This document shows positions 1-44,798 of a stretch of DNA of 44,798 bases, in pieces (the first letter of the stretch is position 1; every line of letters begins with the position of its first letter). The stretch is taken from sequence record LT960609, one strand, 5' to 3'. The notes beneath the pieces are model-generated. The model was not told the origin of the DNA. It was given only the letters and a program-made list of their open reading frames with translations, and made no database searches. This stretch comes from Escherichia phage SECphi18. Both the position numbers and the translations under genes were made by a program.

Positions 1-55
1 GGTGAATAATAGATTGGTTGCAGGATGGGTGTCAACAACTAATTTAAAAAAAAAA
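1..55. repeat. Terminal duplication, copy 1 (identical to 44744-44798)
   Basis: First 55 nt (ggtgaataatagattggttgcagg...aaaaaaaaaa) recur exactly at the window end. Confidence 0.8.
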
Positions 56-80
56 GCGCCGAGGCAAAATGCGACGGCGC
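46..80 (-). terminator. Intrinsic terminator on minus strand
   Basis: Minus strand reads gcgccg-13 nt loop-cggcgc followed by T10 (plus-strand A10 at 46-55). Confidence 0.55.
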
Positions 81-110
81 TAACCAATAAGAGACAATGA
101 GACGGGAATT

Positions 111-139
111 ATTATTACACGCGTGCGCGCCCGTTTCAA
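111..139 (-). promoter_or_regulatory. Sigma70-like promoter, leftward
   Basis: Minus strand: -35 TTGAAA, 17-nt spacer, extended -10 TGtAATAAT; transcript would run into the 46-80 terminator. Confidence 0.4.
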
Positions 140-151
140 TATCCAAAGGAT

Positions 152-180
152 TTGACACCGTGCAGTTTTGGGTGTAGTTT
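152..180 (+). promoter_or_regulatory. Sigma70-like early promoter, rightward
   Basis: -35 TTGACA, 17-nt spacer, -10 TAGTTT, about 30 nt upstream of the first gene. Confidence 0.5.
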
Positions 181-211
181 CGTTGGTCATTAACCAACTG
201 AGGGAAGAGCG

Positions 212-541
212 ATGAATGTAAACGACGCAATCGAAATGTTAACGAAGACTGTTAGCAGTGAGACAAGCCGGTCATGGTCTTATACCGATGCCGTTGGGGC
301 GGTGCTATTTGAGGTCGAGCGCCTGCGCAGTGTAGAAAAAGAATTACGCGCCAGGCTGGAATTGCTCAACGGTACGGCAGCCAGCAAGCTGCAAAAGCAC
401 AATGAAGAAATGGAAGAATACAAAAAGCAGGTTATCCGTTTGCGCGCCGAGGGCAAATCCTGGGCGATGATTGCCGAGTTGACCGGAATTAATCAGAGCA
501 CAGTGCGCTCCTGGGTACGCAATAATAAAACTTCTAAGTAA
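212..541 (+). CDS. Small helix-turn-helix DNA-binding protein (early regulator candidate)
   Basis: 109 aa; RBS gagggaagag before ATG; C-terminal HTH-like segment GKSWAMIAELTGINQSTVRSW. Confidence 0.55.
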   Translation: MNVNDAIEMLTKTVSSETSRSWSYTDAVGAVLFEVERLRSVEKELRARLELLNGTAASKLQKHNEEMEEYKKQVIRLRAEGKSWAMIAELTGINQSTVRSWVRNNKTSK

Positions 542-2891: not shown

Positions 2892-2976
2892 ATTTTGGGT
2901 GTTTTTATCCGGTCGTATTGGTTGCCGTGTCGTGTAAATATAGTGAATAGTTATGCAATAAAACTGCATAAACTAA

Positions 2977-3078
2977 GCGGGACAAAAAGCGGGACAAACA
3001 TGAGGCGGGACAAAGCGGGACAGCACCCCTGTCCCGCCCCGGATGACGCGGCCTGGCGAGGAGCGGGACAGCGGGACA
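2977..3078. repeat. Iteron cluster A: six direct GCGGGACA copies plus one inverted copy
   Basis: GCGGGACA at about 2977, 2989, 3005, 3015, 3063, 3071; inverted TGTCCCGC at about 3030; non-coding. Confidence 0.7.
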
Positions 3079-3138
3079 GCACCCCAGTCTTTCAGACTAG
3101 ACGGGGTCAGTGGCCCCCCCCCGTCTGAGACTGAATAA
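3064..3138 (+). other. Conserved ~75-nt structured element, copy A (paralog at 19504-19578)
   Basis: cgggacagcgggacagcaccccagtctttcagactagacgggg...ccccgtctgagactgaataa; hairpins agtct/agact and agacgggg/ccccgtct. Confidence 0.55.
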
Positions 3139-3294
3139 AATCCGGGAGATTGCAAAATACACGGCAGCATGATGCGGATTGCGGTCGTTGATGAACTAGG
3201 CAACCAATGCGGGGTGTATTATGCTGAGTGAAAAATGCGGTTTGCAGTTACAGCAGATAGCGATCGACTTTTTCATGCGCGTGATTAATATTGG

Positions 3295-18943: not shown

Positions 18944-19257
18944 TTGAGGCGGCGCGACGCTTTTATGGCCCGCCGCCACCCTCCGAAGATTTAGCCGCAA
19001 GTTTATGGGGCGCGGCCCCCGAAGATGTTTGTCCGCCTGTTGCGCTATGGCCCGACAACGCGAAGGTAGTCGCAGTCTTCACAGATTGCTCCACGCAATG
19101 GCGCACCGGATTTGGTGGCGCATACGGCATCGACTACGGCGTGCTGGAGTGGTTATTTAAGATGCACGGTATCGAAAACGAGCAGCGCGCGTTTAAAGAT
19201 ATCAAGCTAATGGAACGAATCGCGCTTGATGAGATGGCGCAGCAGAACCCCGCATAA
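18581..19257 (+). CDS. Tail assembly chaperone GT fusion via programmed -1 frameshift
   Basis: Slippery A_AAA_AAC at about 18934-18940; -1 frame stays open about 103 codons to TAA at about 19255-19257; no in-frame start of its own. Confidence 0.5.
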
Positions 19258-19261
19258 TGAA

Positions 19262-19518
19262 GCGGGACAAAAGCGGGACGTCCCGTTTTGTCCCGCCCTG
19301 TAAAACCGCATATCTAATCTCTTTCATTGCATAAACTCAAAGCGGGACAGGCGGGACGTCCCGTTTTGTCCCACCCCGAAATGTGCATACCTATTCGAAT
19401 TTCGTGCATAAAACAAACGGGACAAAAAGCGGGACAGCATAGGGGCGGGACAAAGCGGGACAGCACCCCGTCCCCACCAGTGCTGCCGCGGGTTTTAGCC
19501 GATCGGGACAGCGGGACA
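19262..19518. repeat. Iteron cluster B: about nine GCGGGACA-type copies with GGGACGTCCC palindromes
   Basis: Units of about 80 nt: tgcataaa, then GCGGGACA, then GCGGGACgtcccg; non-coding block inside the tail module. Confidence 0.7.
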
Positions 19519-19578
19519 GCACCCCAGTCTTTCAGACTAGACGGGGGTCAACGGCCCCCCTCGTCTGAGACTGAATAA
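19504..19578 (+). other. Conserved ~75-nt structured element, copy B (paralog at 3064-3138)
   Basis: Matches copy A except for a few changes in the second hairpin that keep pairing through a G-U wobble. Confidence 0.55.
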
Positions 19579-19640
19579 GGATTGTTTTAAAATCGCTGAT
19601 ACAATGTCAATCGGCAACTGCATAAAAAGGGGACTGCATA

Positions 19641-34433: not shown

Positions 34434-34460
34434 AAAAAGGCGTCCAAACCGGACACCCTT
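34434..34460 (-). terminator. Terminator-like hairpin on minus strand
   Basis: Minus strand: ggtgtcc-ggttt-ggacgcc followed by T6. Confidence 0.4.
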
Positions 34461-34467
34461 AAGATAA

Positions 34468-43603: not shown

Positions 43604-43855
43604 TTATTTTGTCTCCCAGCGGTCAATTGTTTTTGCTTCGGATGCAACTGCGAAGCGAACATATTCCAGATTGGAATCCGCCCAAATATAAAAGTCGGGG
43701 TTAGTAAAGGTGGTGCGCTTAATTTGCGCGGGGGTGTTACGGCGTTTATCTATTACGGCAACGCGTGACTGAAAGCAGCCGATGCGTTCGAATAGCCAAT
43801 AGTACGGGCGCTGGTCGCGGGAGTCCACCGCCTCGATTAGCGTGAAGCGTGCCAT
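43604..43855 (-). CDS. Hypothetical protein
   Basis: 83 aa ORF; RBS gaggacgag. Confidence 0.4.
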   Translation of the reverse strand: MARFTLIEAVDSRDQRPYYWLFERIGCFQSRVAVIDKRRNTPAQIKRTTFTNPDFYIWADSNLEYVRFAVASEAKTIDRWETK

Positions 43856-43871
43856 TGTCTCGTCCTCTAAA

Positions 43872-43898
43872 AATAGGCCCGCAGATTAGCGGGCCGGA
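43872..43898 (-). terminator. Terminator-like hairpin on minus strand
   Basis: Minus strand: ggcccgc-taatct-gcgggcc followed by tattttt. Confidence 0.4.
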
Positions 43899-44033: not shown

Positions 44034-44552
44034 TTAATCTTCCAATTCGAAATAAGTTTCGACGATTTCTTTTAGCTCTTTGTGGAAGTCTTCGACGTCG
44101 TCATCTTCCAGCTTGGCGATTGATTTGATCTCGAACGACTCCAGCAGGTCGTCGAATTCGTCGTTCGCATCGTCGTCATCGCCACCGGCAATAATCGCGG
44201 CATACTGTTTGATCTCGTCGCGCATCTCCGCCAGCGGATCGGCATCTTTCTTACCTTTGCCTTTCGCCGGTGCTTTTTTAGCCTTAGCCGGTTTTTCGTC
44301 TTCGGCTTCTTCATCGTCGTCATCTTCTACGACTTCTTTTTTGGCCTTACCCTTTGCCGGCGCTTTTTTAGCCTTAGCCGGTTTTTCGTCTTCGGCTTCA
44401 TCGTCGTCATCTTCGACAACTTCTTTTTTGGCCTTAGACGGCTTCTTGTCTTCCTGCTTACCAACGGCAGCGCCAACGGTTTCATAATGCTTTGCAATGG
44501 TTTCCAGTGCTACTACGCCGCGAGTGATCAGGTTTACGATTTGCTCAAACAT
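44034..44552 (-). CDS. Acidic protein with internal ~90-bp tandem duplication
   Basis: 172 aa from internal ATG with RBS ggagat; repeated KPAKAKKAPAKGK-KEVVEDDDDE blocks. Confidence 0.5.
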   Translation of the reverse strand: MFEQIVNLITRGVVALETIAKHYETVGAAVGKQEDKKPSKAKKEVVEDDDDEAEDEKPAKAKKAPAKGKAKKEVVEDDDDEEAEDEKPAKAKKAPAKGKGKKDADPLAEMRDEIKQYAAIIAGGDDDDANDEFDDLLESFEIKSIAKLEDDDVEDFHKELKEIVETYFELED

Positions 44553-44743
44553 GGTATATCTCCGATTGGTTAAGTTTAGGTGTCGGCAGTTAACTTCGTC
44601 GGTGGCCTTAACATATTGCCAGGTTACGCGTTCTCCCGTTCGGGTAGTGGACCTGGTTATATAATCACGGTTGGGAATCCTGACACTTCGATCCGGCCCC
44701 TGCGTTGCCCCTCTCCAGTTTGCGTCCTGCATCCTGTCGACGG

Positions 44744-44798
44744 GGTGAATAATAGATTGGTTGCAGGATGGGTGTCAACAACTAATTTAAAAAAAAAA
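44744..44798. repeat. Terminal duplication, copy 2 (identical to 1-55)
   Basis: Last 55 nt equal the first 55 nt. Confidence 0.8.

What the first reader, a model, noticed from the sequence alone, without database searches (positions are those of the whole stretch)
46..139. Candidate ~55-nt leftward small RNA between genome end and early promoter
On the minus strand a good promoter (TTGAAA, 17 nt, TGtAATAAT) is followed about 50-60 nt later by a strong intrinsic terminator (6-bp GC stem plus T10). It is back-to-back with the rightward early promoter and contains no plausible ORF, resembling a short oop-like RNA.
Basis: seen in the sequence. Interest (0 to 1): 0.55.

Follow-up and report, generated by a model that had tools for sequence, protein, structure and literature searches.

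The report
Conserved small RNA gene in Dhillonvirus
A strong bacterial-type promoter followed about 55 bases later by the only strong terminator in this coliphage genome forms a tiny non-coding RNA gene that is almost unchanged in all 153 sequenced relatives, so it is very probably a real but never annotated phage small RNA whose target is still unknown.

Summary
The sequence features are real. On the minus strand, TTGAAA-17-TGtAATAAT (139..111) is followed by an unpaired ~22-nt stretch, a 7-bp hairpin (81..55) and T10 (55..46).

The "genome end" is not real. Bases 1-55 equal 44744-44798, an assembler overlap. The unit lies inside a ~400-bp divergent early control region of a Dhillonvirus (HK578-like coliphage).

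Chance is excluded. Only four >=10/12 sigma-70 matches exist genome-wide, and two are here. This is the only T-run of 8 or more in the genome.

The unit is in all 153 GenBank relatives, mostly >=95% identical against 90-95% for the flanks. The RNA body 82-103 is nearly invariant. The hairpin keeps pairing through double substitutions in two other lineages. A distant relative keeps promoter, the 10-mer CUCAUUGUCU, a hairpin and U13.

It is not coding, not in Rfam, not host-derived and not antisense to any gene.

Best reading: an early ~55-58-nt Hfq-type trans-acting sRNA whose terminator also insulates the leftward promoter P2. No target could be shown; phage ribosome-binding sites score no better than with shuffled seeds. 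Expression is untested.

By-product: a covarying ~150-nt leader RNA downstream of P2, shared by at least six phage genera.

The parts
134..139 (-). P1 -35 hexamer TTGAAA
   Evidence: 10/12 match. Nearly invariant in 25 unique relatives (pi 0.013).
111..119 (-). P1 extended -10, TG-T-AATAAT (hexamer 116..111)
   Evidence: Conserved in all Dhillonvirus loci. 17-nt GC-rich spacer at 133..117 varies in sequence but mostly not in length.
103..104 (-). Predicted transcription start (7-8 nt after the -10)
   Evidence: Inference from promoter geometry. Indels in relatives are confined to 104-110, and invariance begins at 103.
82..103 (-). Unpaired 5' body of the RNA, GUCUCAUUGUCUCUUAUUGGUU (candidate seed); 10-mer CUCAUUGUCU at 101..92
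   Evidence: Unpaired in the MFE and centroid folds. pi 0.01 against 0.12 for the adjacent CDS. The 10-mer is retained in distant L017.
55..81 (-). Terminator hairpin (AGCGCCG / CGGCGCU with an inner GCA/UGC stem)
   Evidence: Compensatory double changes in L014/L048/L109 and L017.
46..55 (-). T10 tract: U-tail of the terminator. It also lies at about -57..-48 of P2 (UP-element position).
   Evidence: Only T-run of 8 or more in the genome. Length is 8-14 in relatives but it always abuts the hairpin.
6..35 (-). P2, leftward early promoter TTGACA-18-TATTAT immediately downstream of the terminator (neighbour, not part of the RNA)
   Evidence: 11/12, best match in the genome. A -10-like hexamer is maintained in variants. 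The spacer contains the ATTGGTTGC motif.
153..181 (+). Rightward promoter TTGACA-17-TAGTTT, back-to-back with P1 (neighbour)
   Evidence: Read (9/12, below the scan threshold). The -35 is invariant (pi 0).
44744..44798 (.). Duplicate of window 1-55 (assembler overlap), which creates the false 'genome end'

Best explanation
Positions ~104..47 (minus strand) are an independent, host-sigma-70-driven gene for a ~55-58-nt non-coding RNA, made from the start of infection. The RNA has an unpaired, sequence-invariant 5' region of about 22 nt, a U/A-rich stretch, a GC-rich terminator hairpin and a U10 tail. That is the architecture of Hfq-dependent base-pairing sRNAs. It most likely acts in trans by pairing its 5' region with one or more mRNAs; given its invariance across the genus these are possibly host mRNAs, or else phage early ribosome-binding sites. 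Its terminator at the same time shields the adjacent leftward early promoter P2 from P1 transcription, and its T-tract probably serves P2 as an UP element. Shown here: the sequence elements, their statistical uniqueness, conservation, structural covariation and lack of coding potential. Inferred: that P1 fires, that termination is efficient, Hfq binding, and trans action. Unknown: the target.
For: (1) The promoter and terminator are the top-ranking signals of their kind in the genome. (2) The unit is present in 153/153 Dhillonvirus-type GenBank records, 143 at >=95% identity, while the surrounding 3 kb is 90-95% in 145/156. (3) Fine-scale conservation follows the functional map: -35, -10 and RNA body 82-103 are nearly invariant (pi 0.01 against 0.12 in the CDS), and indels occur only between the -10 and the start site and in T-run length. 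(4) Hairpin covariation: GCGCCG/CGGCGC changes to UCCCCG/CGGGGA in L014/L048/L109, and to AAUCCCCAGG/CCUGGGGAUU in L017. Each RNA folds alone into an unpaired 5' region plus a hairpin abutting U10-U14, z -3.9 to -4.8. (5) In distant L017 almost everything diverged, yet a -10 TATTAT, the 10-mer CUCAUUGUCU at the RNA 5' end, a new hairpin, U13 and a downstream TTGACG promoter persist. There the T-run keeps its contact with the hairpin but not its spacing to P2 (20 nt instead of 10), so termination is the primary constraint. (6) Selection on the sequence of an unpaired segment is what a seed needs, not what an insulator needs. (7) Not coding. (8) Lambda's Hfq-bound sRNAs have the same 3' module, a GC-rich hairpin plus poly-U (bioRxiv 10.1101/2024.10.31.621285).
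Against: No expression data exist for any Dhillonvirus in the searched literature. No target was identified: duplex energies against 58 predicted phage translation-initiation regions are no better than for shuffled seeds (p about 0.15-0.22). Candidate sites (gp46 RBS 44573..44557; gp45 start 43861..43848, 13/14 paired; 43626..43609) are explained by the pyrimidine-rich seed generally matching Shine-Dalgarno sequences. In the L014/L048 lineage a 1-nt deletion in the seed is not compensated in the gp46 site. Host targets could not be searched: only matches of about 20 nt or more were detectable and none was found. L014/L109 have a 15-nt P1 spacer, so P1 may be weaker there. The whole intergenic region is highly conserved, so conservation alone is not specific to an RNA product.
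Confidence: 0.55

Rival explanations
1. DNA- or transcription-level control element whose RNA is a by-product. P1 exists to modulate the back-to-back rightward promoter or to load RNA polymerase. The terminator and T-tract exist to insulate P2 and act as its UP element. The invariant +1..+22 segment is a protein-binding site (for example for the HTH protein of gene 212-541) rather than an RNA seed.
For: T10+AAATT lies at about -57..-41 of P2 and closely resembles the rrnB P1 UP element (own knowledge, Ross/Estrem/Gourse). Terminator sequences that double as promoter elements are reported to be common (bioRxiv 10.64898/2026.08.19.745784). In Arya and BUCT618 a terminator also sits directly upstream of the promoter of the homologous leader module. 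Gene 1 encodes an HTH protein. The genome has an over-represented DNA motif, ATTGGTTGC, with a copy in the P2 spacer.
Against: The invariant RNA body does not contain ATTGGTTGC (two mismatches). It is neither palindromic nor a conserved repeat: the second GAGAC is lost in L017. In L017 the T-run is 20 nt from the -35 instead of 10, yet still abuts the hairpin. An insulator is needed only if P1 is active. The termination site is about 50 bp from the P2 start, outside the <=35-bp coupling class.
Confidence: 0.2
2. Promoter-proximal attenuator of the lambda PR'-tR' (6S RNA) type. P1 transcripts normally stop at the terminator, but at a certain time they are made termination-resistant by a phage factor and read through P2 into the leftward DNA-metabolism operon. 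The conserved initial transcribed region would be a pause or loading site.
For: The layout, a constitutive strong promoter followed by a short terminated RNA and then a long operon, matches lambda 6S/PR' as summarised. The leftward operon contains further terminator-like hairpins (about 43895..43866). Gene 1 has a sigma-70 region-4-like HTH.
Against: A strong independent promoter, P2, lies between the terminator and the operon, so read-through is not needed for expression. No Q-like, N-like or other antiterminator was identified. The hairpin plus U10-U14 is an unusually strong terminator. Read-through transcription would occlude P2.
Confidence: 0.12
3. Primer or origin-activating transcript for DNA replication, encoded next to the primase-helicase gene.
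For: It is adjacent to the replication module (552-2816, primase-helicase). OOP was historically proposed as such a primer (own knowledge). The + strand GAGACAATGAGAC at 91-103 loosely resembles the GGGACAGCGGGAC iterons.
Against: The iteron arrays (candidate origins, SO-1 regions A/B) are at ~3.0 kb and ~19.4 kb, not here. The GGGAC core of the iterons is not kept in the RNA gene. Efficient intrinsic termination releases the RNA rather than leaving an R-loop.
Confidence: 0.04
4. A small protein gene, as annotated in some GenBank relatives (for example the SM_S22 59-aa CDS and 'hypothetical protein' in Oekolampad and KarlBarth), or a chance co-occurrence of motifs.
For: ORF 39..230 (minus, 63 aa, TTG start) spans the region, and some records annotate a CDS there.
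Against: The reading frame is broken by 1-nt indels and by T-run length variation among close relatives. The ORF runs through a terminator and starts inside the opposite gene. Most records leave it unannotated. Chance is excluded by genome-wide uniqueness and covariation.
Confidence: 0.02

Closest known systems
Hfq-dependent trans-acting sRNAs with a 5' seed and terminator module, including phage- or prophage-encoded ones (lambda PreS/LPR1 ~88/68 nt and LPR2 ~63 nt; DicF 53 nt; Vibrio phage VpdS)
   Same: Size of 50-90 nt, own sigma-70 promoter, unpaired conserved 5' region, U/A-rich stretch, GC hairpin and a poly-U tail of 7 or more; encoded by a phage and predicted to be made during lytic growth (for the lambda sRNAs; DicF and the Hfq module from own knowledge, Otaka 2011 / Ishikawa 2012).
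   Different: No sequence similarity to any of them (Rfam; E. coli genomes). Encoded by a strictly lytic siphophage genus. PreS is the 3' end of the early left operon at tL2a, whereas this RNA has its own promoter. Hfq binding and targets are untested here.
Lambda OOP RNA (77 nt, promoter pO)
   Same: Short leftward RNA from a constitutive promoter to a strong intrinsic terminator, located in the early/replication control region.
   Different: OOP is cis-antisense to the 3' end of cII and acts through RNase III. The RNA here overlaps no gene or predicted transcript on the opposite strand and shares no sequence with lambdoid prophages in E. coli genomes.
Lambda 6S RNA (PR'-tR' promoter-proximal terminated transcript)
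   Same: Strong constitutive promoter followed closely by a terminator, upstream of a long operon.
   Different: 194 nt, and read through by Q to express genes that lack their own promoter. Here a strong promoter (P2) follows the terminator and no antiterminator is known.
Promoter-coupled terminators (Fletcher et al. 2026 preprint)
   Same: Terminator elements immediately upstream of the next promoter, with the T-tract positioned to contribute to that promoter.
   Different: The defined class has the termination site within 35 bp (mode 10 bp) of the next start, with the stem DNA acting as the -35. Here the distance is about 50 bp and the T-tract sits at the UP-element position.

Membership tests
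Intrinsic (Rho-independent) terminator | GC-rich stem-loop immediately followed by a U-tract of 7 or more on the transcribed strand | tested here: met
   7-bp stem (6 GC) plus U10, dG -16.7, z -3.9. Only T-run of 8 or more in the genome. The + strand has no T-run after the hairpin, so it is unidirectional.
Intrinsic (Rho-independent) terminator | Structure rather than sequence is conserved (compensatory changes) | tested here: met
   Three stem versions, all perfectly paired. RNAalifold counts 2 pairs with double changes even with L017 one column out of register.
Sigma-70 promoter (P1) | -35 and -10 hexamers with 16-18 bp spacing | tested here: met
   TTGAAA-17-AATAAT plus TG, 10/12. One of four such matches in the genome. 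Conserved.
Sigma-70 promoter (P1) | Initiates transcription in vivo or in vitro | not testable with these tools
   No transcriptome data for Dhillonvirus found.
Hfq-dependent base-pairing sRNA | 3' module: U/A-rich stretch, terminator hairpin, poly-U tail of 7 or more | tested here: met
   UUAUU lies shortly upstream of the hairpin; U10-U14 tail in all lineages.
Hfq-dependent base-pairing sRNA | Accessible, conserved seed region | tested here: met
   82-103 is unpaired in the MFE and centroid folds and nearly invariant. The 10-mer is kept in L017.
Hfq-dependent base-pairing sRNA | Identifiable mRNA target(s) with significant or covarying complementarity | tested here: inconclusive
   Phage TIR scan is not better than shuffles. 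Candidate sites only. Host transcriptome not searchable here (one search detects only matches of about 20 nt or more).
Hfq-dependent base-pairing sRNA | Binds Hfq | not testable with these tools
   Needs co-IP or RIL-seq.
Lambda OOP-type cis-antisense RNA | Overlaps and is complementary to the 3' end of a convergent gene (cII) | tested here: not met
   No + strand gene or promoter-like site covers 46-104. Nearest + gene starts at 212.
Lambda OOP-type cis-antisense RNA | Sequence homology to oop | tested here: not met
   No BLAST match in 5,426 E. coli genomes, which carry many lambdoid prophages.
Any Rfam 15 family | Score at or above the family gathering threshold | tested here: not met
   0 hits at gathering over the whole window. 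Best permissive hits 21.8 bits against GA 72 and 18.1 against 43, driven by the terminator.
Promoter-coupled terminator (Fletcher 2026) | Termination site within 35 bp upstream of the next start site | tested here: not met
   Predicted 3' end at about 47-50; P2 start at about 44742, a gap of about 50 bp.
Small protein-coding gene | Reading frame conserved among relatives | tested here: not met
   1-nt indels and variable homopolymer length within ORF 39..230.

The most novel reading that the evidence does not exclude
A whole genus of strictly lytic coliphages (including several BASEL-collection phages) expresses, from its strongest host-type promoter and within the first minutes of infection, an Hfq-type sRNA. 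Its 22-nt seed is frozen across 153 genomes because it targets conserved host mRNAs or sRNAs. That would be early post-transcriptional host takeover by a lytic siphophage, working alongside an adjacent, equally undescribed structured leader RNA on the early leftward operon.
Probability: 0.3. Interest if true: 0.72.

Novelty: new member of a known kind. Interest (0 to 1): 0.55.

Why it matters
Phage-encoded base-pairing sRNAs have only recently been shown to matter (lambda PreS, Vibrio VpdS), and the known cases come from temperate phages. A universally conserved sRNA gene with its own promoter in a common lytic coliphage genus would extend this regulatory layer to virulent phages used in defence-system and therapy research. 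It is directly testable with one Northern blot. It also corrects annotation: about 150 GenBank genomes leave it blank or call a spurious ORF. It also clarifies the early control region: P1-sRNA-terminator, then P2, then an optional leader RNA, with a divergent rightward promoter.

Tried and rejected
(1) Genome-end context: rejected, 55-nt assembler overlap; cos reported elsewhere.

(2) Coding ORF 39..230: rejected, frameshifts in relatives.

(3) Rfam membership: none, at gathering or at E<=10.

(4) Host origin or a long host target: no BLAST match in E. coli genomes.

(5) Pairing with the two flanking ribosome-binding sites. This looked attractive by eye (9 bp + mismatch + 7 bp at gp46). However, the genome-wide RNAduplex scan ranks GC-rich coding windows higher. 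The ungapped scan shows similar matches at several Shine-Dalgarno sites. The TIR-restricted test is not significant against shuffled seeds, and the L048 lineage does not compensate.

(6) Iteron relationship (GAGACAATGAGAC against GGGACAGCGGGAC): the pattern was derived post hoc and the core is not conserved.

(7) Operator hypothesis via ATTGGTTGC: the motif is real but absent from the RNA body.

(8) More distant homologues. Kagunavirus St162 has the same divergent layout without the unit. EcoPhCCP1 is unrelated in this region. L030 is an irrelevant high-GC contig. The pattern scan of IMG/VR gave only Dhillonviruses after filtering. The metagenome scan added only close relatives.

(9) L021 seemed to lack the terminator, but it is an adapter-chimeric contig.

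(10) The leftward 5'UTR folded as a single sequence is not unusually stable. Its structure emerged only from the cross-genus alignment.

(11) HK022 put comparison: positional analogy only; no sequence was available to test.

Full report
OBSERVATION. On the minus strand the window reads TTGAAA (139..134), a 17-nt GC-rich spacer, then TG-T-AATAAT (119..111). The next 22 or so nucleotides (GUCUCAUUGUCUCUUAUUGGUU, 103..82) are predicted to be unpaired. They are followed by a hairpin, AGCGCCG-UC-GCA-UUU-UGC-CU-CGGCGCU (81..55), and a run of ten T (55..46). Folding energy is -16.7 kcal/mol, z = -3.4 to -3.9, and none of 200 shuffles is as stable. The consensus scan scored the promoter 10/12 with an extended -10 TG. 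It missed the terminator only because the 13-nt loop exceeds its 8-nt limit.

CONTEXT CORRECTION. The "genome end" is an artefact. Window 1-55 is identical to 44744-44798, which is the overlap an assembler leaves on a circular contig, and it breaks exactly at the A10 homopolymer. The window is a complete genome (44,743 bp unique) of a Dhillonvirus, the HK578-like siphophages of E. coli. 156 GenBank phage records match the first 3 kb, and in most of them this site is internal. For Dhillonvirus EE09, PhageTerm predicted 10-nt 5' cohesive ends with the sequence ATCTTAAGGG (PMC10673088). That 10-mer occurs exactly once in the window, at 34456-34465.

In the circular map, + strand genes run from 212 to about 31.6 kb and minus-strand genes run from about 44555 down to about 31.6 kb. 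The finding therefore lies in the single ~400-bp divergent early control region. Reading leftward, the order is:
- the rightward promoter TTGACA-17-TAGTTT (153-181), which faces away;
- P1;
- the short RNA;
- the terminator;
- ten bases later a second, even better promoter, P2 (TTGACA-18-TATTAT, 35..6, 11/12);
- a 190-nt 5'UTR;
- the first leftward gene (ATG at 44555).

The rightward operon starts with a 109-aa HTH protein (Pfam HTH_23 and sigma-70 region-4-like) and a primase-helicase (552-2816).

MORE THAN CHANCE. Across the whole genome and both strands, only four sites reach 10/12 of the sigma-70 consensus. Two of them are P1 and P2, in tandem on the same strand. There is exactly one T-run of eight or more in 44.7 kb (GC 55%), the one behind this hairpin.

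COMPARATIVE EVIDENCE. The 99-nt unit is found in all 153 Dhillonvirus-type GenBank records, and 143 are >=95% identical. The surrounding 3 kb is 90-95% identical in 145 of 156 records. In an alignment of 25 unique relatives plus the window, nucleotide diversity is:

| Segment | pi |
|---|---|
| RNA body 82-104 | 0.01 |
| P1 -35 | 0.013 |
| Rightward promoter -35 | 0 |
| Adjacent coding sequences | 0.12-0.13 |

Indels are confined to 104-110 (between the -10 and the start site) and to the length of the T-run, which ranges from 8 to 14.

The hairpin covaries. The L014/L048/L109 lineage has UCCCCG...CGGGGA instead of GCGCCG...CGGCGC, which is two double substitutions. The one distant relative (L017, IMG/VR; HTH protein about 70-80% identical) has AAUCCCCAGG...CCUGGGGAUU. 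Each RNA on its own folds into an unpaired 5' region plus a hairpin abutting U10-U14, with z -3.9 to -4.8.

L017 is the most informative relative because nearly all primary sequence has changed. It still has a -10 TATTAT with a weak -35, the 10-mer CUCAUUGUCU within a few nucleotides of the predicted 5' end, a new hairpin, U13, and then a TTGACG promoter and the leftward gene. Its T-run is 20 nt from that promoter's -35 rather than 10 nt, but it still touches the hairpin. The constraint is therefore on termination, not on spacing to P2. The more distant Kagunavirus St162 (primase 43% identical) has the same divergent layout but no such unit. A pattern scan of IMG/VR recovered the full architecture only in Dhillonviruses.

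WHAT IT IS NOT.
- **Coding:** the only ORF across it (39..230, 63 aa, annotated as a CDS in a few records) starts upstream of the start site, runs through the terminator, and is frameshifted in close relatives.
- **An Rfam family:** no hit at gathering thresholds in the whole window. The best permissive hits are 21.8 bits against a threshold of 72 and 18.1 against 43.
- **Host-derived or lambdoid:** no match in 5,426 complete E. coli genomes.
- **Cis-antisense:** no + strand gene or promoter-like site covers it.

MECHANISM. The anatomy is that of an Hfq-dependent trans-acting sRNA (established knowledge: Otaka 2011, Ishikawa 2012). It has its own promoter, an accessible conserved 5' segment, a U/A-rich stretch (UUAUU), a GC hairpin and a long U-tail. 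The Hfq-bound sRNAs of lambda have the same 3' module. Sequence-level purifying selection on an unpaired segment argues that the RNA product matters, not merely the act of transcribing or terminating.

I therefore favour an early trans-acting base-pairing sRNA (confidence about 0.55 that it is a functional RNA gene, lower for the specific mode of action). The terminator must also protect P2 from P1 elongation complexes. T10+AAATT sits where P2's UP element would be and resembles the rrnB P1 UP element (my own knowledge), so the terminator probably has a dual role.

I could not identify a target:
- The flanking ribosome-binding sites look complementary by eye. gp46: UUAACCAAU-C-GGAGAUA, 9 bp + mismatch + 7 bp. 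gp45 start region: GAGACAAUGGCACG, 13 of 14 paired.
- The seed is pyrimidine-rich (GUCUC twice), so it matches Shine-Dalgarno sequences generally.
- Against 58 predicted phage initiation regions, the real seed does no better than shuffled seeds (p = 0.15-0.22).
- The L048 lineage shows no compensation.
- Host targets could not be searched with these tools.
- The invariance across the genus would fit a conserved host target, but that is inference.

RIVALS.
- **(a) DNA-level control element with a by-product RNA (0.2).** Supported by the UP-element geometry, by reports that terminator DNA often contributes to the next promoter, and by terminator-promoter pairs upstream of the homologous leader in other phages. 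Weakened because the invariant body lacks the genome's over-represented DNA motif, is not palindromic, and because spacing to P2 is not conserved in L017.
- **(b) Lambda PR'-tR'/6S-type attenuator that is read through later (0.12).** Weakened by P2 lying between the terminator and the operon, and by the absence of any known antiterminator.
- **(c) Replication primer or origin activator (0.04).** The iteron arrays are elsewhere.
- **(d) Small protein or chance (0.02).**

COMPARISON AND NOVELTY. In its likely mode of action it most resembles phage-encoded Hfq-type sRNAs such as lambda PreS/LPR2, DicF and VpdS. It is not a member of any described family. It resembles lambda OOP only in size and shape, because the defining antisense overlap was tested and not met. 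I found no transcriptome, sRNA or promoter/terminator study of any Dhillonvirus, and GenBank records leave the locus blank. I rate it a new member of a known kind. Interest is moderate (0.55): the computational case for a real gene is strong, the phages are widely used, and a one-day experiment would settle it. However, function and expression are unproven.

BY-PRODUCTS.

(1) The ~150-nt block at the 5' end of the P2 transcript (about 44575-44735, minus strand) is an optional insert, absent from L003, L010, L012, L014 and L048.
- It aligns over its full length with unannotated 240-270-nt intergenic gaps of phages from at least six other genera: Hanrivervirus, Warwickvirus, Changchunvirus, Murrayvirus, Jilinvirus, plus Serratia MQ-4, BUCT618 and KMI8.
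- It is always in the sense orientation and starts just after a promoter-like sequence.
- RNAalifold on nine sequences gives 27 pairs, 8 with double compensatory changes.
- Two nested stems are hypervariable in sequence but always paired, and the length is fixed at 122-124 nt.
- Rfam has nothing like it.
- Its promoter-proximal position ahead of internal terminators recalls the HK022 put RNA (PMC9378689), but that is only an analogy.

(2) ATTGGTTGC occurs 15 times exactly (about 0.3 expected). Copies are often in pairs, and they include the P2 spacer, the flanks of iteron region B and a site next to cos.

(3) Metagenome contig L021 is an Illumina-adapter chimera.

Noticed in passing
window 44575-44735 (minus strand), 5' end of the P2 transcript: Optional ~150-nt structured leader RNA. 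It is absent from some Dhillonviruses but shared over its full length with unannotated intergenic gaps of phages from at least six other genera (slyngel, tunus, PHB17, KMI8, Lumpael, Arya, MQ-4, BUCT618). It is always sense-oriented and starts just after a promoter. 27 consensus pairs, 8 with compensatory double changes; two hypervariable but always-paired nested stems; fixed length of 122-124 nt; no Rfam match. Possibly a new cis-regulatory RNA class (put-like antiterminator or riboswitch is speculation)..
   Followed up: partly
window 13-21, 2828, 2882, 2917, 3200(-), 3290, 3321, 3840(-), 13664(-), 13677(-), 29775(-), 32813, 34469(-), 34486(-), 37428(-): The 9-mer ATTGGTTGC occurs 15 times exactly (about 0.3 expected), often as pairs 13-17 bp apart. 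One copy is in the spacer of leftward promoter P2, several flank iteron region B, and two lie next to the cos sequence. It is likely the binding site of a phage DNA-binding protein, or a phage-specific promoter element.
   Followed up: partly
window 1-55 and 44744-44798: Exact 55-nt terminal duplication ending at the A10 homopolymer. This is a circular-assembly (k-mer) overlap, so the true genome is 44,743 bp and the record start is arbitrary.
   Followed up: yes
window 34456-34465 (minus strand): Single exact copy of ATCTTAAGGG, the 10-nt 5' cohesive end predicted by PhageTerm for Dhillonvirus EE09 (PMC10673088). This is the probable physical genome end, about 10 kb from the finding.
   Followed up: partly
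window 2960-3140 and 19250-19580 (+): Two arrays of AGCGGGACA(A/G) iteron-like repeats, each ending in a long imperfect hairpin (CAGTCTTTCAGACTAGACGGGG...CCCCCGTCTGAGACTG). They correspond to 'region B' and 'region A' annotated as a possible origin in Sodalis phage SO-1.
   Followed up: no
window ~43866-43895 (minus strand): Terminator-like hairpin GGCCCGC-TAATCT-GCGGGCC followed by TATTTTT, after the first two leftward genes and directly upstream of the ribosome-binding site of ORF 43604-43855. L017 has an analogous hairpin after its first leftward gene. This suggests regulated read-through within the early leftward operon.
   Followed up: no
L021 (metagenome contig OQVL01056812.1), positions ~640-690: The contig contains the Illumina TruSeq adapter ACACTCTTTCCCTACACGACGCTCTTCCGATCT in place of the terminator and P2. 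It is a chimeric assembly, not a natural variant.
   Followed up: yes
window 212-541 and homologues in GenBank: The first rightward gene is annotated inconsistently in relatives as transposase, resolvase or 'DNA recombination nuclease inhibitor gamma'. Pfam supports only a C-terminal HTH (HTH_23 / sigma-70 region-4-like), so it is more likely an early transcription regulator.
   Followed up: partly
window 44556-44732 (minus) and relatives: SO-1 gp46 and the mechanical 232-aa ORF (44034..44732) extend the first leftward gene through the leader RNA module. Relatives lacking the module, indels that are not multiples of three, and the good Shine-Dalgarno sequence at the internal ATG (44555) show that the extension is not coding.
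   Followed up: partly
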